A stretch of DNA of 64,000 bases from the sequence record NC_008515.1; one strand, written 5' to 3'. The stretch is from Escherichia phage RB32. Position 1 is the stretch's first letter; the number at the start of each line of letters is the position of its first letter. Under the pieces are notes generated by a model. That model saw only the letters and a list, made by a program, of their open reading frames with translations, did no database searches and had not been told where the DNA came from. Below are positions 55,320-62,931 of this stretch, piece by piece. Position numbers and translations under genes: made by a program.

Positions 55320-57377
55320 CTACATTTTGAACTTTTTAGACATTCCGTTGATGTTAACCAAAGAAGCTAAGATTTGAGAAACTTCATTTTCCTCTTCTTT
55401 TGATTCTTCTACAAGGAATTGATTAAATCCAGTCATTGGACGAACTTCACCAGTTTCCATTAGATGGTCGCCATCATATACTGATTCCTCTAATTGTTCA
55501 GAAGGAGGAACGATTGTACCTTCGATTAGATACTTGTTATAAGCAGTTTCTTTCATAAAGTACGTACTTACTTTATTAATCTTCAGTAAAATTCCACGCG
55601 GTAGAATAACTTCAGCTTCTGATGGAAATCCTGATAAATGACCTGGAACGATAACTTTGATTCGCTCAGCTCCTTTAATTACCATACCCACGCTAGTTTC
55701 AGCATCTTCATTGGCATATGTAGAATGACTACCCGTATGCATTAAATCTTCTGCATCAACGGAACCTTCTCCTTCACCAGAAAATACTGCGCCGGAATCA
55801 TCTAGAGCCATATAGTTTTTACCATGCTCACCGAAGATATTTGGTTTAAGCGATGTGGATACGAAGTTCTTGAAATAGAACATTTTATTTTCAATGTTAT
55901 GACGCAAAGTTTTAAAGGTAACTTCTTGTCCACGATAAAGCGTAGTTCCTGGAGGAAGAACCGAACCTTTAGCGAATGCAGAATCCAACGTCTCGATGTG
56001 CTTAATGGCACGTTCCATATATTCTTCACGGGTAGAATCTGGTTTACCCAAAAGGAACGAGTTCATTTCAACATATGAATCTGCACAATAATCTTCAATT
56101 ACATCAGATTCAGCTTGAGTTAATCCTTTTGGAGTTACTTCGGTGCTTGCGTATTCATATGCCTGAGCGGCAGATTCATTAATCAATTTATAAATGCCAT
56201 TCATTACAAATTGAATAATAGCTGTCTTTTCATCTGGCGTAGCTTTAGAACCTTTAACCAAATCATTGATAATTTTCTTAATAACATCAAAGCTATTAGA
56301 AATATTAATATCAGCAAGATCGCTTAAAATTTTATCAGTTTTATAATCAAAGAATTCTTTATTCTTTAAATATTCTTGAGAACCTTGATATGTTATATCG
56401 CTCTGCAACTTGATGGATGGATCACGTAAACGTGCATGGGCTAATGCAATATGATTTCGGAAGTTTTCTAGTTCATAATCGCTAGATTTAAAACGAGAAG
56501 CACTCCTCATACCACCGATAGCTCCTTTGCTGAAGTTTGAACCAATCTGAATAACGCCAGAGTTCATTGGTCCTTCTGCTTTATATACCGGAACTTTAGA
56601 TTCAAACTCTTGATATTTCTTAGCAGCGAAGCTATCACCCTGAAGTGAAGCATCAACAGTAGAATATTGAGCTTGTGCTGCTAATCGACGACTAATTTTA
56701 GTTTTCTGAATAACAGCTTGGTCCGTGCGCTTATCATTTTCTAAAGCAATAGAAGCAGCAACAGCGACAGCTTTAGGAACAGCATTACCTGTTTTAACGT
56801 CTACATAAACATCACCAACCTTTGATTCAACTTTTGTGAATAACTCAGTTGAAATAGGAGGTACACCTGGAATGTCTTCTAAATTGGCATTTTTACGGTA
56901 AACCATAATATATGCATACTTTTTATCATAGTCCCAGATTTCCTTTAAAAGAACATATCGACCTGCTCCTTTAGTACGTACTAAACGGTCAGCAATAACT
57001 TGCATTTGACGAGCAGCGCCATTTGTTTTACTTTTTAGTACGCGGAATAGGCATGCGTCAATTTTATACTGCTTCATTGTTTGAAGAGCAGTATCAAAAA
57101 CAGCATTAATGACACCAATTGGATTTCCACCCAAGTTTCTAAGCTTAACCAGCGATAATTTCTCGTTGACACCTATCATTACGATATGCATCATTTTATC
57201 GCCTGGCTTAACGTTTTTATTCGTATCACCACCAGAGGTGTATGTACAAAATCTAAATCCAGGAAGCACGCTTTCTTCGCCGGCTTGAATAGCAAAAATT
57301 TGTGGTATTTTATGCTTAGGATTTAAGTTAACAACCGGCGCCGAAGCGCCGTCAAATAATTCTGTAATAAGTTCCAT
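55320..57377 (-). CDS. Alt-family ADP-ribosyltransferase paralog, 685 aa
   Basis: N-terminal about 230 aa closely parallels the adjacent alt product (MELITELFD..., KIDAC, GRYVLLKE.WDYDKKYAYI); C-terminal ART motifs YRGQ...STS...EAEVILPRG. Confidence 0.8.
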   Translation of the reverse strand: MELITELFDGASAPVVNLNPKHKIPQIFAIQAGEESVLPGFRFCTYTSGGDTNKNVKPGDKMMHIVMIGVNEKLSLVKLRNLGGNPIGVINAVFDTALQTMKQYKIDACLFRVLKSKTNGAARQMQVIADRLVRTKGAGRYVLLKEIWDYDKKYAYIMVYRKNANLEDIPGVPPISTELFTKVESKVGDVYVDVKTGNAVPKAVAVAASIALENDKRTDQAVIQKTKISRRLAAQAQYSTVDASLQGDSFAAKKYQEFESKVPVYKAEGPMNSGVIQIGSNFSKGAIGGMRSASRFKSSDYELENFRNHIALAHARLRDPSIKLQSDITYQGSQEYLKNKEFFDYKTDKILSDLADINISNSFDVIKKIINDLVKGSKATPDEKTAIIQFVMNGIYKLINESAAQAYEYASTEVTPKGLTQAESDVIEDYCADSYVEMNSFLLGKPDSTREEYMERAIKHIETLDSAFAKGSVLPPGTTLYRGQEVTFKTLRHNIENKMFYFKNFVSTSLKPNIFGEHGKNYMALDDSGAVFSGEGEGSVDAEDLMHTGSHSTYANEDAETSVGMVIKGAERIKVIVPGHLSGFPSEAEVILPRGILLKINKVSTYFMKETAYNKYLIEGTIVPPSEQLEESVYDGDHLMETGEVRPMTGFNQFLVEESKEEENEVSQILASLVNINGMSKKFKM

Positions 57378-57380
57378 GAT

Positions 57381-59474
57381 TTATCCTTGAACGAACTTGT
57401 AAGGCATGTTTGTAATATCTATGCAAGACGCAATAATTCCAAGAGATGATTCTACTTTCTGTTTAACATTTGATGAAACAAATGATGCAAAGTCAACTCT
57501 GTCTTCTACTTCAATATCACCTGTCATTGCAACTACTTCGCCGGTTTCCATTAGACAGTCTCCGTCATAAATTACCGATTCGGTGAGTTCTTCTGTGGTC
57601 ATAACTTCAGCTTGAATGAGTTTTGTATTATTAGATGTTGTTCCGTCATTATTAGAAGCATCAGTTATTTTATTAACTTTGACCATCAACCCGCGCGGTA
57701 GAATAACTTCAGCTTCTGTTGCTATTCCGAGACTTCCTGGATATACAACATTAACTTTATGAGCTCCATCAATTGCCCATCCTATTTGAACTTTAACGTA
57801 TTCAGGATTTTCTTTATACGCTCTTATTTCGTTTGGATTAATAGTTATTCCTTCTTCATTTTTATCAACTGTTAATTCGTTACGAGCTTCTGGTTCTAAA
57901 AGACCAATACCAGCATGTGTAATTCCAAAACGTCCAAAAATGATAGGAGTTAAAGAAGTAGATACAAAATTTCTGAAATAGAACACTTTATTTTTAACTA
58001 GTGCTTCGTATATAGGAGCAGTCATACTTTGAGCACGATAAACTGTAATGCCTTCCGGTATGCGGTCACCATTTTCAAAAGCTGAATCTAAATTATTTAT
58101 AGCAGATTCAATTTCTTTTTCACTCATTACATCATATCGTTCTGGATTGTAACGACCTAAAAGAAGATTATTAATGTCTGTATATCCTGAACCACAATAC
58201 TCTCTAATACCGCGCTTTTGTGATGGAGTATATTTAGAACCATCACGGGCAATAGTAATATCAATCATTGGACCAGCACCAATTCCAGAAAAGCTATAAA
58301 TCATTCGTTTGAGGAATTTAGTTTTTGCTGCATTCCAGGCATTTTTAGTTATTTCTCCCCAGACTTCATCTGGTTGCCCTTTACGAGTTTTATTATGTTT
58401 ATCAAGCCAATTATCTTTATATTCTTCAAAGAATTTATTAACAGCTGCTGCGTATTTCTCTAAACATTTTATTGAAGTAGTTGGCTCATTTTTTATCGCG
58501 TTAAAAATTACATCTTTAATTTTTTCGGAAACTTCATCAACCTCACTTTTTGAAAAGAATTTATAGTCATAGTGAAGTTCATTCGCAGTTCCTTCGGCAA
58601 TAATTTTTGCTGCCTTAGTTTTAGAAGCTAATGAATTAATTCCAAGCTTCATTTCTTCTGCTTCGGGAATTAAAGGAGCGGTAGCAGGTTTATTGAAATT
58701 AGCTGCGGTAGATTCATACTTCTGGAATAATTCACTTTCAAACCTAGAAGATTCCAATGATTGACTTTGCGCAATTGCTCTACGGGAAATTTTAACTTTA
58801 ACGATTACAGCTTGGTCAGAACGTTTATCATTTTCTTGCGCAATAGATGCTGCAATTGCCTCATTTTTAGTTACTTGGGCTCCAGTATCTTTATTGATAT
58901 AAACATCACCGACCTTCGATTCAACTTTAGTAAAGAGCTCGGTACTAATTTCCGGAACTCCTGGAATGTCTTCTAGTGATACATTTTTGCGATGTATAAG
59001 AATATATGCATACTTTTTATCATAATCCCAGAGTTCCTTAAGAAGGACGTATCTACCACCTGAACGACTACGGATAAGTCTATCAGCAATAACTTGAATT
59101 TGTCGAGCTTGGCCAGCAGTTTTAGACTTAAGAATACGAAGCATACAAGCATCAATTTTATACTGACGCATCGTTTGCATTGCAACAGTAAAAACTGAAT
59201 TGATATAATTAATTGGGCTTGGACCAAGACCTTTTAATTTAGCAATTGAACCTTTAGCAGTTAATGTAAAAGGAACAATATGCATCATTTTATCGCCCAT
59301 TTTTAAATCGCGATTAGTATCACCTCCAGATGTATAGGTACATAAACGAAAGCCTGGTTGTTCAATTGCATCATCAACATGAACTGAAAAAATTTGCGGT
59401 ATTTTCTTCTTTGGATTTAAGTTTGTAATCGGAAGAGTAGTATCTTCGTCAAATAATTCTGTAATGAGTTCCAT
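57381..59474 (-). CDS. alt: Alt ADP-ribosyltransferase (injected head protein)
   Basis: Near-identical to T4 Alt as recalled (MELITELFDEDTTLPITNL...); R-S-E ART motifs; start taken at second Met. Confidence 0.85.
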   Translation of the reverse strand: MELITELFDEDTTLPITNLNPKKKIPQIFSVHVDDAIEQPGFRLCTYTSGGDTNRDLKMGDKMMHIVPFTLTAKGSIAKLKGLGPSPINYINSVFTVAMQTMRQYKIDACMLRILKSKTAGQARQIQVIADRLIRSRSGGRYVLLKELWDYDKKYAYILIHRKNVSLEDIPGVPEISTELFTKVESKVGDVYINKDTGAQVTKNEAIAASIAQENDKRSDQAVIVKVKISRRAIAQSQSLESSRFESELFQKYESTAANFNKPATAPLIPEAEEMKLGINSLASKTKAAKIIAEGTANELHYDYKFFSKSEVDEVSEKIKDVIFNAIKNEPTTSIKCLEKYAAAVNKFFEEYKDNWLDKHNKTRKGQPDEVWGEITKNAWNAAKTKFLKRMIYSFSGIGAGPMIDITIARDGSKYTPSQKRGIREYCGSGYTDINNLLLGRYNPERYDVMSEKEIESAINNLDSAFENGDRIPEGITVYRAQSMTAPIYEALVKNKVFYFRNFVSTSLTPIIFGRFGITHAGIGLLEPEARNELTVDKNEEGITINPNEIRAYKENPEYVKVQIGWAIDGAHKVNVVYPGSLGIATEAEVILPRGLMVKVNKITDASNNDGTTSNNTKLIQAEVMTTEELTESVIYDGDCLMETGEVVAMTGDIEVEDRVDFASFVSSNVKQKVESSLGIIASCIDITNMPYKFVQG

Positions 59475-59526
59475 CATATCCTCTCTAGTGTTTATTCTAT
59501 TTATAAAATTAAAGGCCCGAAGGCCT

Positions 59527-59715
59527 TTAATAATCTATTGGTAAGAGAGTACGATATATTTCAAACTTTGGACCTTTTTCATAGGCATCAAATGTTTCTG
59601 TGAATTTATTATAAGCATATGCATCTATAAATTCAATCATGATTTGTGATACAGAAGTAGAAACATCTCCACCTTCTTTTTGAGCCACGACAATTGTTTC
59701 TAAGTAAGCTTTCAT
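59527..59715 (-). CDS. Small hypothetical protein, 62 aa
   Basis: ORF track; overlaps the gene 30 stop by 4 nt. Confidence 0.5.
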   Translation of the reverse strand: MKAYLETIVVAQKEGGDVSTSVSQIMIEFIDAYAYNKFTETFDAYEKGPKFEIYRTLLPIDY

Positions 59716-61172
59716 AGACCAGTTACCTCATGAAAATCACCAAATACATCTTCGAATGTATTAGCTTTAGTTTTATCTTCACGTAAACGAATCGCAATCG
59801 GAAGAAATAATTTAACGTAATCAGTGCGGCCATCAGATTTTAACCAACCGTTGCATTCGCACTCTAGAATTTTTCCAATATAATAATTTTGGTTTTCCAT
59901 GATGCGAGTACGGTCAAGTTCATGTGATTTTACACCGGCTTTATCTTTTAAGCCTGAACCAGCATTTACTTTAATTTTTCCACACTCTGATTCAAGAATA
60001 AATCCACCTGCTTTAGTAGGGTCTTTACGGTGAGGATAAATTCCTACAATTTTTAAATCAACATCAATTACTTCTTTAAATTTATAGAGATTTTTTGAAC
60101 GAGCATTTTCCCACAATCCATCGGTATTTTTGAGAATAATACCTTCAAGACCTTGGTCAATATACTTTTTGTAAATAACCTTAGCTTCATCTAGGTTATT
60201 TACTACCTGGTTTTCAATTAAAATTACTTTATCATAGCCTGATGTCATTTGTTCTAGTTTAGAAAAACGTACATCATATTTTAAACGAAATGCTGGAAGA
60301 CCGTATACTTCTACCAACGGTACATAATCCCAGACCTGAAACTTCATGCATTGAGCTTCTTTTTCTGAAATAGTTCCTTTTAAAGATTTATTAGCGATTC
60401 CATTAGAAGCAGTACGTGATTCAGCTACTTCTGTGAAGTCTTTAGCTTTGCTAATTTCAGGAGTGTCAAAAAGAAAATCTAGGCCTTCTGATTCCTTTTT
60501 AACTTGCTCATGGTATACCAATTCGCCATCAATTAACACACCTTCTGGATGAATCTGGCGGGCTTCAGCAGTCATTTTGATTAACTCTTCCTTAAGAAGA
60601 TCTAATCCTAGGTATTCATTACCAGCTCGTGATAAAAGACGAACATCATCTAATTCATCACCTCTGACTTCAGCAAAGCACCGAGCTCCATCAGCTTTTA
60701 ATTGGGCAAAGGCTGGAAATTTGATATTCTTATTAATGCCTTTTTCATCATAAGAACTTGCCAGCATTTGAGGTTGTTCAGGAATTAAACCTGGCCAAAC
60801 TTTGTTTGCAATAGATACTGATGCACCGCATTCAAGGTCTCGCATCATCACCCGACGCAAAACTTCAACATCATCTTTTTTACCGTCAGTAATATATCCA
60901 GTTAATTCCTCAATTGCCGCATTTCCAGTCAATTTCCGAGTAGCTAACGTGAATTCAATGAAGTCAAGCATATCGGTAAGAGTCAACATTCCAAAACTCT
61001 GGGTAGCAATACCAGGTTTAGGCCATTTCTTGATATAATACTGTAACCCACGAGAATAAGTCAGACGATATACTCGTTTAAGCAATTCATTATCTTTATT
61101 CTTTTCAAGAATTGCTTGCTTCTGCTTAGTTGAACCAATAGATGCTATTTCGTTCAGAATTTTAAGAATCAT
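59712..61172 (-). CDS. 30: ATP-dependent DNA ligase
   Basis: N-terminus MILKILNEIASIGSTKQKQAILEKNK as in T4 ligase; KxDG adenylation motif FAQLKADGARCF. Confidence 0.95.
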   Translation of the reverse strand: MILKILNEIASIGSTKQKQAILEKNKDNELLKRVYRLTYSRGLQYYIKKWPKPGIATQSFGMLTLTDMLDFIEFTLATRKLTGNAAIEELTGYITDGKKDDVEVLRRVMMRDLECGASVSIANKVWPGLIPEQPQMLASSYDEKGINKNIKFPAFAQLKADGARCFAEVRGDELDDVRLLSRAGNEYLGLDLLKEELIKMTAEARQIHPEGVLIDGELVYHEQVKKESEGLDFLFDTPEISKAKDFTEVAESRTASNGIANKSLKGTISEKEAQCMKFQVWDYVPLVEVYGLPAFRLKYDVRFSKLEQMTSGYDKVILIENQVVNNLDEAKVIYKKYIDQGLEGIILKNTDGLWENARSKNLYKFKEVIDVDLKIVGIYPHRKDPTKAGGFILESECGKIKVNAGSGLKDKAGVKSHELDRTRIMENQNYYIGKILECECNGWLKSDGRTDYVKLFLPIAIRLREDKTKANTFEDVFGDFHEVTGL

Positions 61173-61438
61173 TGTTCATCCTTTAGAGTTTGGTTTACAG
61201 CTCTATTATAAATCAATTCATCATTAAGCTCAGTCAAAGACCTGTGGTACGTGGTTCTAACTTTATTTCCTTGCATCCAGTGCTTGACGTAAATGAAACC
61301 TTGCTCTACACATTTTTTAAAAATTCGTTCGTCTTTTTGAGCTCGGAATTCTGGATTGCATCTAAAAAATTGATTTACGTGACCGTAATCACGTGTAGTA
61401 TTACCTTCATTTTCATAAATAGTGTGAACGACAAACAT
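61169..61438 (-). CDS. Small protein (T4 30.1 position)
   Basis: 89 aa ORF coupled to ligase. Confidence 0.6.
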   Translation of the reverse strand: MFVVHTIYENEGNTTRDYGHVNQFFRCNPEFRAQKDERIFKKCVEQGFIYVKHWMQGNKVRTTYHRSLTELNDELIYNRAVNQTLKDEQ

Positions 61439-62277
61439 TAGAATGCTCCTTGGAAAATATTATCACCACTAGTAGGTCTATTATACAAATACTCTATGCC
61501 ACCAGGTTTAATATAGTTCCATGTCTGAAACGGATGTGTCTGATATGGATGATATAGATGATTATAAGGATTAAATCCAGGAGTTCTCCAGGTAGTGTTC
61601 CAAGGAAAAGAATCGTTTTTAATCATCTTTTCAATTACATCTTTTATAGCTTTTTCACTATCAAAACTTTCTTTATTTTCCTTCGATGGAAAAAGCTTAT
61701 TCTCGACATCATTCCATGTATAAACTCGCTGAGCAGTTTTTGGAATACTGTCACGCTCCCCTCGAGCCATCCAATAAACAGGAACATTTAATATTTCACT
61801 CGCATGATCGCAGTGATGAGCGAGATCGTCAATATAACAAATTACGTTATATTTCTCTTTTGCCTTTTTGAACAACTCTTCTTTTGAAGAATCATGACCA
61901 CACATCATTACTTCTGAGAAGGCACCAGGAAAAAGAGCATTCAAATTAAATTGGCGATTCAACAGAGCGTCAATAGAATCACCTAATGCTGTAACAGCTA
62001 CAAAATTATAATCTTCTTTTAATTTGTTAATTACACACAGGGCATCTTTATACGGAGACAAGTAACGAATAAAATCTGAACGATTGTATTTTTCAATTAA
62101 CTTGACGCCAAGTTCTTCGTCACAATTAAAGAGTTTACCTGGAGAAATAAATTTCTCATCTTGGATCATTTTTAAAATATGTTCTAACGGAAGATTATAT
62201 TTCTGGGCAAAATAAGGAAGGCCTGATTGCCAGCTTAAACATACTCCATCAATATCAGTCAAAATAGTTGGCTTCAT
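61438..62277 (-). CDS. HAD-superfamily phosphatase-like protein (T4 30.2 position)
   Basis: N-terminal HAD motif I LTDIDGV; 279 aa. Confidence 0.7.
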   Translation of the reverse strand: MKPTILTDIDGVCLSWQSGLPYFAQKYNLPLEHILKMIQDEKFISPGKLFNCDEELGVKLIEKYNRSDFIRYLSPYKDALCVINKLKEDYNFVAVTALGDSIDALLNRQFNLNALFPGAFSEVMMCGHDSSKEELFKKAKEKYNVICYIDDLAHHCDHASEILNVPVYWMARGERDSIPKTAQRVYTWNDVENKLFPSKENKESFDSEKAIKDVIEKMIKNDSFPWNTTWRTPGFNPYNHLYHPYQTHPFQTWNYIKPGGIEYLYNRPTSGDNIFQGAF

Positions 62278-62738
62278 AGAGAGTCTCTTAATAGATTTAA
62301 CACATCAATAAATTCAGCTTCGGTTAGTATTGTATCATCTTTTGTTAGACCACTAGCCATGCTGTGCTTCAAAACTTTTCCTTTCGAGGCTTGTAATGCA
62401 TCACGAAAGCCCCTGTTTTGGATCGCTGCTTCAAAATATGCATTTGTGTATAATTCTTTCCACGCTGGAGAGTATCTTGAAAATGGAACTCCAAGCCAGA
62501 ACAACGTGCCACGGTCCTGAGCTCTAGCATAAGCTCGTCCAGCTTGTTGGGCGGCAAGCCCGGATAAACCAAATATACGACGTTGTTGTTCAACATTTTT
62601 CACTTTGCATCCTTGGAGGAATCCTTCAAGACCTCCGAATTGAATACCATCCATGACGAAAGGCCATTGGGCGAAATTGCTTAATGCACATGATGGCCAT
62701 CTAAAATTGCTTCTAATCTCTAACTCAGACATTTTCAA
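62274..62738 (-). CDS. NADAR/YbiA-like (DUF1768) protein (T4 30.3 position)
   Basis: 154 aa; WPSCALSNF...FEAAIQNRGFRDAL pattern resembles NADAR domains (by eye). Confidence 0.6.
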   Translation of the reverse strand: MKMSELEIRSNFRWPSCALSNFAQWPFVMDGIQFGGLEGFLQGCKVKNVEQQRRIFGLSGLAAQQAGRAYARAQDRGTLFWLGVPFSRYSPAWKELYTNAYFEAAIQNRGFRDALQASKGKVLKHSMASGLTKDDTILTEAEFIDVLNLLRDSL

Positions 62739-62931
62739 TACTTATAATTTCAACATCAGCCCAATGACCATAGCAAGGAAGACGAAATTCAACTGGCCAG
62801 TTAGGGTCCTTTTCTAATATAATAGACTTAACTTGTGGTTCTTCATGTTCATCGGTATATGGACCTTTATATGTTACTTTATATGTGACCTTAATGTACT
62901 GAATTCCAAAAATCTTATTAATTATATTCAT
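62725..62931 (-). CDS. Small hypothetical protein, 68 aa
   Basis: ORF track; coupled. Confidence 0.5.
   Translation of the reverse strand: MNIINKIFGIQYIKVTYKVTYKGPYTDEHEEPQVKSIILEKDPNWPVEFRLPCYGHWADVEIISIENV

What the first reader, a model, noticed from the sequence alone, without database searches (positions are those of the whole stretch)
61438..62738. HAD-like phosphatase and NADAR-like protein encoded downstream of DNA ligase
The 279-aa ORF has a HAD motif I (DIDGV) and the next 154-aa ORF resembles NADAR/YbiA (DUF1768) domains, which have been linked to reversal of DNA ADP-ribosylation. Together with the two ADP-ribosyltransferases just upstream, this makes a local cluster of ADP-ribose-handling enzymes.
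Basis: inference. Interest (0 to 1): 0.45.

Follow-up and report, generated by a model that had tools for sequence, protein, structure and literature searches.

The report
Known anti-DarT NADAR plus uncharacterised HAD phosphatase
These are phage T4 genes 30.3 and 30.2 as carried by phage RB33: 30.3 is the already characterised AdfN enzyme that strips ADP-ribose from phage DNA to defeat the bacterial DarTG1 defence. Gene 30.2 is a conserved but untested nucleotidase-like HAD phosphatase that stays next to the DNA ligase gene and shows no evident link to ADP-ribose.

Summary
The window is Enterobacteria phage RB33, a T4-like phage (100% match). Both ORFs are real minus-strand genes, translationally coupled in the string 30.4-30.3-30.2-30.1-30 (ligase).

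**30.3, the 154-aa ORF.**
- The true start is probably the ATG at 62732, giving 152 aa.
- It is 98% identical to T4 gp30.3 (AdfN). AdfN is a published NADAR DNA ADP-ribosylglycohydrolase that counters DarTG1.
- E36, K43, H123 and the C-terminal helix are intact.

**30.2, the 279-aa ORF.**
- It has no direct Pfam hit.
- It has all four HAD motifs: D8xD10, T96, K132, D150-D151.
- Of 47 distant relatives, 16 hit Pfam NT5C.
- The substrate is unknown.

**Gene neighbourhood (77 related loci).** Ligase lies in the fetched locus after 30.2 in 71. The NADAR is adjacent in only 36 and sits about 65 kb away in phage 44RR2.8t.

**Verdict.** The NADAR/ART neighbourhood was already noted in the literature. 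Nothing places the HAD protein in an ADP-ribose module. Ordinary; low interest.

The parts
62274..62732 (-). [quoted passage not shown]
62625..62627 (-). AdfN catalytic Glu36 codon (T4 numbering; E38 of the 154-aa ORF)
   Evidence: Invariant in alignment A1. E36A impairs T4 AdfN (PMC11825919). Codon read.
62604..62606 (-). AdfN catalytic Lys43 codon (K45 of the 154-aa ORF)
   Evidence: Invariant in A1. K43A impairs T4 AdfN. Codon read.
62364..62366 (-). AdfN His123 codon, the histidine that replaces the last-strand Glu/Asp in phage gp30.3-type NADARs
   Evidence: Invariant H125 of the 154-aa ORF in A1. The subfamily hallmark is described in PMC11125620 and PMC11825919.
61438..62277 (-). Gene 30.2, a HAD-superfamily phosphatase-type protein with a helical C1 cap, NT5C-like; function untested
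62242..62256 (-). HAD motif I, D8-I-D10-G-V (nucleophile Asp and Asp+2)
   Evidence: D8, D10 and G11 are invariant in A2. D8 and D10 are invariant in 48 sequences down to 21% identity. Aligns with the N-M-D-G-V of the mouse cdN D12N variant 2jao.
61441..61617 (-). Disordered C-terminal tail of gp30.2 (residues 221-279), variable between genera
   Evidence: pLDDT 43-55 from about residue 225. Tails differ or are absent in other genera.
61483..61497 (-). IEYLY motif in the tail, resembling the gp45 clamp-binding motif LDFLF (hypothesis only)
   Evidence: Only 2 matches to [LIV][DE][FY]L[FYL] in 58 ORFs (18,725 aa) of the window; the other is the proven clamp-binding loop of the ligase. 'GIEYL' (with variants GVEYL, GLEYL, GIEYW, GIEYY) occurs in 17 of 57 long-tailed homologues.
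61169..61438 (-). Gene 30.1 (DUF3045), between 30.2 and the ligase gene
   Evidence: PF11243 at 2.9e-64. Annotation.
59712..61172 (-). Gene 30, ATP-dependent DNA ligase; the most constant neighbour of 30.2
   Evidence: PF01068 at 3.2e-33. Present in the fetched locus after 30.2 in 71 of 77 related loci; median gap 298 nt, largest 1536 nt.
57381..59477 (-). alt, the packaged ADP-ribosyltransferase
   Evidence: PF03496 at 2.3e-37. Annotation.
55320..57377 (-). alt.-2, a full-length second Alt paralogue
   Evidence: PF03496 at 5.6e-20. YR, STS and EAE motifs are visible in the translation. T4 has only short remnants here.

Best explanation
The region holds two separate early-gene enzymes of a T4-type phage (RB33). 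They are co-oriented and translationally coupled with the DNA ligase gene.

**(1) Gene 30.3 is adfN.** It encodes a small NADAR-fold N-glycohydrolase. The enzyme cuts ADP-ribose off guanine bases that the host toxin DarT1 puts on phage DNA, so replication can proceed in DarTG1-carrying hosts. The mechanism is shown experimentally for the 98%-identical T4 protein and is inferred here by orthology.

**(2) Gene 30.2 encodes a Mg2+-dependent phosphomonoesterase of the HAD superfamily.** The nucleophile would be Asp8 and the acid/base Asp10. The active site is covered by a helical C1 cap (about residues 12-88). The protein is most similar to 5'(3')-deoxyribonucleotidases (NT5C). It most likely dephosphorylates a small nucleotide-type substrate. 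The enzyme class is inferred from fold and motifs; the substrate is a guess.

**(3) The proximity of NADAR, HAD, ligase and the two Alt ADP-ribosyltransferases** is inherited T4-family gene order, not a dedicated ADP-ribose pathway.
For: **Identity of the region.** The window is 100% identical to RB33, and the record names these genes 30.2 and 30.3.

**30.3:**
- PF08010 at 1e-69.
- 149 of 152 residues identical to T4 gp30.3, full length.
- E38, K45 and H125 are invariant.
- AF2 pLDDT 81.5.
- The profile's best PDB sequence hit is YbiA, E 0.058, aligning the E..Q..K motif.
- Relatives at about 40% identity give sub-threshold Pfam NADAR hits, 0.003 and 0.014.
- Published genetics and biochemistry exist for T4 AdfN.

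**30.2:**
- Motifs I-IV are conserved.
- AF2 gives mostly pLDDT >90 for residues 1-200.
- Foldseek ranks cdN and mdN among the best hits, TMt 0.63-0.69.
- The profile's best PDB hit is cdN 2jao, E 0.06, aligning DxDGVLxxW/FxSGL.
- 1395 representative relatives were found. Of 47 sampled, 16 hit Pfam NT5C (best 4e-10), 14 hit Hydrolase and 8 hit HAD_2.

**Synteny.** Ligase lies in the locus after 30.2 in 71 of 77 loci (67 by the strict same-strand <=2.3 kb count). The NADAR lies just before it in 36 of 77. In phage 44RR2.8t the NADAR is about 65 kb from 30.2.
Against: - No direct Pfam, NCBIfam or PADLOC hit supports HAD for gp30.2. The sequence-only PDB hits are above E 0.05. The HAD call therefore rests on a predicted structure, on motifs and on transitive homology.
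- No experiment on gp30.2 was found.
- The nucleotidase guess could be wrong. Dehalogenases, epoxide hydrolases and sugar phosphatases score almost as well structurally.
- The stop/start overlap of 30.3 and 30.2, and their adjacency in several genera, leave room for a functional link.
- The published finding that T4 AdfN needs an unidentified T-even factor for full activity also leaves room for such a link.
Confidence: 0.8

Rival explanations
1. One reading: NADAR, HAD and the two Alt ARTs form one ADP-ribose-handling module. In it the HAD phosphatase processes a phosphorylated product of ADP-ribose or NAD turnover, such as ADP-ribose-1''-phosphate, ribose-5-phosphate, AMP or NMN.
For: - 30.3 and 30.2 overlap by ATGA.
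- They are adjacent in 36 of 77 loci from several genera.
- ARTs lie in the same fetched locus in 55 of 77 loci.
- The ART-NADAR early-gene neighbourhood has been noted in T4-like phages (PMC9503650).
- One distant HAD homologue (L075) lies 4.3 kb from an NMNAT-Nudix gene.
Against: - The NADAR is not adjacent in 41 of 77 loci and is about 65 kb away in 44RR2.8t, while the HAD gene keeps its place beside the ligase gene.
- The HAD protein's relatives are NT5C-type nucleotidases.
- ADP-ribose released by a NADAR has no phosphomonoester (established chemistry).
- AdfN alone removes ADP-ribose from DNA in vitro and, expressed ectopically, fully rescues RB69.
- Alt targets proteins, not DNA guanine (established knowledge).
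Confidence: 0.08
2. gp30.2 is a replication- or repair-associated phosphatase that works with DNA ligase. It could be a DNA 3'-phosphatase that heals nicks before sealing, possibly tethered to the gp45 sliding clamp through its C-terminal tail.
For: - The gene lies immediately before the ligase gene in 71 of 77 loci, down to about 40% identity.
- There is a weak PHROG polynucleotide-kinase hit at 0.0032.
- The disordered tail carries IEYLY, resembling the clamp-binding LDFLF or LDFLY of gp43, gp55, gp33 and the ligase loop.
Against: - The protein has a helical C1 cap of about 75 residues over the active site. By established knowledge of HAD enzymes, that is typical of small-substrate enzymes; the Pnkp phosphatase is capless.
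- The tail motif is lost in 93-94%-identical relatives (L004, L005) and absent in many genera. It does not covary with the ligase loop motif.
- Adjacency may simply be conserved T4 gene order.
Confidence: 0.1
3. gp30.2 is the unidentified T-even-specific factor that T4 AdfN needs for full activity outside a T-even infection.
For: - AdfN-T4 does not protect uninfected cells or T5/Bas25 infections, and the authors propose an additional T-even protein.
- 30.2 is the next gene and is translationally coupled.
- A 30.2 homologue lies beside the NADAR gene in the six loci L010-L015 at 74-75% identity. I take these to be RB69-type phages from contig size and identity; the genus was not checked. If so, this fits the full rescue of RB69 by AdfN-T4.
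- 30.2 and 30.3 have nearly the same distribution across phage records.
Against: - There is no mechanistic reason for a phosphatase to assist an N-glycohydrolase.
- The two genes are separated in more than half of the related loci.
- Roughly 280 annotated features per genome (284 in RB33, 296 in T4) are equally untested candidates.
- Co-distribution is expected for any two conserved family genes.
Confidence: 0.05

Closest known systems
T4 gp30.3 = AdfN (anti-DarT factor NADAR), Johannesman et al. 2025, PMC11825919; its in vitro activity is also reported in PMC11125620
   Same: 98% identical, same length and same gene position between 30.4 and 30.2. It has E36, K43 and H123 and the C-terminal helix that is truncated in RB69.
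   Different: Three conservative substitutions only (A67S, R107K, M125I relative to T4). The RB33 protein itself has not been assayed.
[quoted passage not shown]
   Different: His replaces the Asp/Glu of the last strand. There is no hit to Pfam NADAR PF08719 at E<=1, only PF08010. The gene is an orphan with no linked toxin, and T4 AdfN does not work as an antitoxin in uninfected cells.
5'(3')-deoxyribonucleotidases cdN/mdN and the S. epidermidis deoxyribonucleotidase-like protein 3bwv (Pfam NT5C, PF06941; HAD superfamily with C1 cap)
   Different: Only 16-20% identity. No direct PF06941 hit. There is an extra helix (residues 199-220) and a disordered 60-residue tail. Substrate unknown.
Phage T5 Dmp deoxynucleoside-5'-monophosphatase
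   Same: A phage-encoded enzyme with a DxDGT motif I that acts on dNMPs. It is the nearest functional precedent for a phage nucleotidase.
   Different: Not specifically related. hhalign probability is 1.8% and only motif I aligns. By established knowledge T4 reuses host dNMPs, so a general dNMPase role like that of T5 Dmp is unlikely.
Phosphatase domain of T4 polynucleotide kinase (Pnkp/PseT)
   Different: Pnkp is capless and acts on polynucleotide 3' ends. gp30.2 has a C1 cap.

Membership tests
NADAR superfamily | NADAR alpha+beta fold | tested here: met
NADAR superfamily | Conserved catalytic Glu and Lys in the first helix (E36 and K43 in T4 numbering) | tested here: met
   E38 and K45 of the 154-aa ORF are invariant in A1 and align with the YbiA SEHYFQAQK segment.
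NADAR superfamily | Match to the Pfam NADAR profile PF08719 | tested here: inconclusive
   No hit at E<=1 for the RB33 protein. Relatives P0020 and P0022 hit at 0.003 and 0.014, below the gathering score.
NADAR superfamily | Hydrolysis of guanine-N2-ADP-ribose | not testable with these tools
   Shown for the 98%-identical T4 protein (PMC11825919 and PMC11125620).
Phage gp30.3 / AdfN subfamily | PF08010 match, His in the last strand, intact C-terminal helix, position next to 30.2 and 30.4 | tested here: met
   PF08010 at 1e-69. H125 invariant. Full-length alignment to T4. Gene order.
HAD superfamily | Motifs I (DxD), II (T/S), III (K) and IV (DD) | tested here: met
   D8, D10 and K132 are invariant; T96, D150 and D151 are nearly invariant.
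HAD superfamily | Rossmann-like HAD core fold | tested here: met
HAD superfamily | Direct match to a curated HAD profile (PF00702, PF13419 or NCBIfam) | tested here: not met
   None at E<=1. Distant relatives do hit: 14 of 47 match Hydrolase and 8 of 47 match HAD_2.
NT5C 5'(3')-deoxyribonucleotidase family | PF06941 match and the nucleotidase-type cap with an aromatic residue 8 positions after the nucleophile | tested here: inconclusive
NT5C 5'(3')-deoxyribonucleotidase family | dNMP phosphatase activity | not testable with these tools
   No experimental report on gp30.2 was found.
Pnkp-type polynucleotide 3'-phosphatase | Capless (C0) HAD domain open to polynucleotide ends | tested here: not met
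   The model has five helices (residues 16-86) between motifs I and II.

The most novel reading that the evidence does not exclude
gp30.2 is not a free-standing nucleotidase. It is a replisome-associated phosphatase recruited to the gp45 sliding clamp through the IEYLY motif in its disordered tail, beside the clamp-bound ligase. It may also be the missing T-even factor that lets AdfN work fully during infection.
Probability: 0.07. Interest if true: 0.6.

Novelty: already known. Interest (0 to 1): 0.2.

Why it matters
The NADAR gene matters because it decides whether T-even phages can grow on DarTG1-carrying bacteria. That is already established for T4 and T2, so finding the orthologue in RB33 adds only the prediction that RB33 resists DarTG1.

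The HAD gene is one of the conserved T4-family genes with no assigned function. Placing it as an NT5C-like phosphatase that stays next to the ligase gene narrows the experiments needed. This is an annotation-level gain, and some GenBank and JGI records already call homologues HAD hydrolases or deoxyribonucleotidases.

Tried and rejected
- **Direct profile scans of gp30.2** gave nothing usable. Pfam returned only TPK_catalytic at 0.098. NCBIfam returned only thiamine diphosphokinase at 0.014, far below its cut-off. PADLOC returned nothing. PHROGs returned a family of unknown function.
- **PADLOC** gave no DarG-like hit for gp30.3.
- **Single-sequence PDB searches** were not significant.
- **Domain fusions** in longer gp30.2 relatives carried no informative Pfam domains.
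- **T5 Dmp as a characterised phage relative:** rejected (hhalign probability 1.8%). Dmp itself has no Pfam hit.
- **Literature searches** for 'gp30.2' and for 30.1/30.2/30.3 together found nothing on 30.2.
- **Covariation between the gp30.2 tail motif and each phage's own ligase clamp-binding loop:** none seen.
- **Contexts of the most distant homologues (L070, L075-L078)** were heterogeneous: clamp loader, UvsX, an exoribonuclease, and one NMNAT-Nudix gene. This is too thin to argue for an NAD link.
- **The afdb50 fold library** was unavailable.

Full report
**Source and gene map**

The 1.85-kb stretch around the finding is 100% identical to Enterobacteria phage RB33 (KM607001.1, genus Tequatrovirus). 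It is 97% identical to many T4-type phages. The record and the T4 reference name the minus-strand genes as follows:

| Gene | Window coordinates | Notes |
|---|---|---|
| 30.4 | 62725-62931 | |
| 30.3 | 62274-62732 | |
| 30.2 | 61438-62277 | |
| 30.1 | 61169-61438 | DUF3045 |
| 30 | 59712-61172 | DNA ligase |
| alt.1 | 59527-59715 | |
| alt | 57381-59474 | annotated start; the mechanical ORF runs to 59477 |
| alt.-2 | 55320-57377 | |

Start and stop codons overlap at each junction from 30.4 to 30 (ATGTCTGA, ATGA, TAATG, ATGA). No terminator-like site lies on the minus strand inside the string. The genes therefore look co-transcribed and translationally coupled.

**Checking the observation**

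- Both ORFs exist as described.
- DIDGV is residues 8-12 of the 279-aa protein.
- The 154-aa ORF is the mechanical reading from a TTG. The annotated start in RB33 and T4 is the ATG two codons later, giving 152 aa.
- The words 'downstream' and 'upstream' in the finding hold only for plus-strand coordinates. In the direction of transcription the two genes precede the ligase gene, and the ADP-ribosyltransferase genes follow it.

**Gene 30.3**

- *Profiles.* hmmscan gives Pfam PF08010 (Phage_30_3) at 1e-69 and no hit to Pfam NADAR PF08719 at E<=1.
- *Orthology.* The protein is 149/152 identical to T4 gp30.3 over its full length.
- *Literature.*
  - T4 gp30.3 has been renamed AdfN. Deleting it makes T4 and T2 unable to plaque on DarTG1 hosts, and expressing it rescues RB69.
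  - The purified protein removes ADP-ribose from DarT1-modified DNA. E36A and K43A variants and a 15-residue C-terminal truncation (the natural RB69 allele) are impaired. It does not counter the thymidine-modifying DarTG2 (PMC11825919).
  - An independent study showed guanine-ADP-ribose hydrolysis in vitro. It also defined phage 'gp30.3' NADARs by a histidine in the last strand, in place of Glu/Asp (PMC11125620).
- *Residues tested here.* E38, K45 and H125 of the 154-aa ORF (E36, K43, H123 in T4 numbering) are invariant in nine homologues down to 39% identity.
- *Sequence links to NADAR.* The family profile's best PDB sequence hit is YbiA (E 0.058) across the E..Q..K motif. Relatives at about 40% identity give sub-threshold Pfam NADAR hits.

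The NADAR reading is correct and the function is already known.

**Gene 30.2**

Direct scans find nothing significant in Pfam, NCBIfam or PADLOC, and only a PHROG family of unknown function. No paper on gp30.2 was found. The protein is 97% identical to T4 gp30.2.

*Motifs.* An alignment of 36 homologues shows the four HAD motifs: D8-x-D10-G11, T96, K132 and D150-D151. D8, D10, R108 and K132 remain invariant in 48 sequences down to 21% identity. The Asp two residues after the nucleophile marks phosphatases and mutases rather than dehalogenases (established knowledge of the HAD superfamily).

*Structure.* The AlphaFold2 model is confident for residues 1-220 (mostly pLDDT >90) and disordered from about residue 225.
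- Foldseek agrees. cdN and mdN have the best target-normalised TM-scores, 0.63-0.69.

*Sequence links.*
- The family profile's best PDB sequence hit is mouse cdN (2jao, E 0.06). It aligns DxDGVLxxW-x-SGL with NMDGVLADF-E-SGL.
- An exhaustive profile search finds 1395 representative relatives at E<=1e-3.
- Of 47 distant ones scanned, 16 match Pfam NT5C (best 4e-10), 14 match Hydrolase and 8 match HAD_2.

*Cap.* Five helices between motifs I and II (residues 16-86) form a C1 cap. By established knowledge that points to a small substrate rather than a polynucleotide end.

gp30.2 is therefore a HAD-superfamily, phosphatase-type enzyme nearest to the NT5C nucleotidases. The fold and motifs are shown here. 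Catalysis and substrate are inferred.

**Is there an ADP-ribose cluster?**

I fetched 77 related loci from IMG/VR with the gp30.2 profile and searched them with the window's proteins.

| Neighbour of 30.2 | Loci (of 77) | Detail |
|---|---|---|
| Ligase gene, downstream in the fetched locus | 71 | 67 by the strict same-strand <=2.3 kb count; median gap 298 nt, largest 1536 nt |
| NADAR gene, just upstream | 36 | |
| Alt-like gene, anywhere in the locus | 55 | |

- In Aeromonas phage 44RR2.8t the 30.3 homologue is at 65.5 kb and the 30.2 homologue at about 130 kb of the same genome.
- At genome level the two genes have almost the same distribution, in 1451 and 1509 phage records with very similar host breakdowns. 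That is expected for two conserved Straboviridae genes.
- The ART-NADAR neighbourhood in T4-like early regions has been noted before (PMC9503650).
- The known activities do not connect. AdfN reverses guanine modification made by a host toxin. Alt modifies host proteins (established knowledge).
- ADP-ribose has no phosphomonoester for a HAD phosphatase to remove.

I conclude that the HAD gene's link to ADP-ribose is unsupported. Its firmest association is positional, with the ligase gene.

**Side observation followed part-way**

- The disordered tail of gp30.2 contains GGIEYLYNRPTSG.
- The pattern [LIV][DE][FY]L[FYL] occurs only twice in the window's 58 ATG-started ORFs of at least 100 aa (18,725 residues). 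One match is here. The other is ligase residue 231, GLDFLFD.
- That ligase loop is the experimentally proven gp45 clamp-binding motif (Kd about 10 uM, crystal structure; PMC6212786).
- T4 gp43, gp55 and gp33 end in SLDFLFG, SLDFLYEAND and TLDFLL.
- 'GIEYL' with minor variants (GVEYL, GLEYL, GIEYW, GIEYY), usually followed by xxQPT, recurs in 17 of 57 long-tailed homologues from several genera.
- It is replaced in 93-94%-identical relatives (L004, L005). Other genera carry other tail motifs or no tail. It does not covary with the ligase loop motif.
- I rate clamp binding as a weak hypothesis.

**Open point in the literature**

T4 AdfN does not protect uninfected cells or unrelated phages, and an extra T-even factor has been proposed. 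gp30.2 is a candidate only by position. I give this about 5%.

**Verdict**

- The family calls are right.
- The NADAR is an already characterised counter-defence enzyme.
- The HAD protein is a conserved, uncharacterised NT5C-like phosphatase.
- The proposed ADP-ribose module is not supported for the HAD member.
- Novelty: already known at the family level. Interest: low.

Noticed in passing
window 55320-57377 (-): RB33 carries a full-length second Alt paralogue (alt.-2, 685 aa; PF03496 at 5.6e-20) with YR, STS and EAE motifs intact. T4 has only two short remnants (alt.-1, alt.-2) at this position. Its target is unknown.
   Followed up: partly
window 61483-61497 (-), gp30.2 residues 261-265: IEYLY lies in the disordered tail and resembles the gp45 clamp-binding motif LDFLF. 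Only two matches to the relaxed pattern occur in the window's long ORFs; the other is the proven ligase loop. The motif is conserved in several genera but lost in some close relatives.
   Followed up: partly
window 59712-61172 (-), ligase residues ~228-236: The RB33 ligase keeps the clamp-binding loop (ESEGLDFLFD). Across T4-like loci the loop motif varies (LDFLF, LGFLF, LFSMF, LDDIF, LDDMF, LFDMF) but is almost always present.
   Followed up: partly
window 62369-62596 (-): A 75-aa ORF sits in another frame inside 30.3. It corresponds to T4 30.3', annotated as an internal translation product. Its function is unknown, and it overlaps the adfN coding sequence.
   Followed up: no
L075 14858-15895 (+): In a distant phage contig, a 26%-identical gp30.2 homologue lies 4.3 kb upstream of a bifunctional NMN-adenylyltransferase/Nudix gene (PF01467 + PF00293). 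This is a single case and is not evidence of linkage.
   Followed up: partly
L044 and L047, 10001 onward: In two loci the ORF tracing of the gp30.2 homologue ran on to 703 aa, into the ligase reading frame. This may be a fusion, a frameshift or an artefact of my ORF tracing.
   Followed up: no
PHROG phrog_652 (profile length 296): gp30.3 matches only positions 126-272 of this 296-position PHROG profile. Some phage members of that family may therefore carry an N-terminal extension or fusion of about 125 residues.
   Followed up: no
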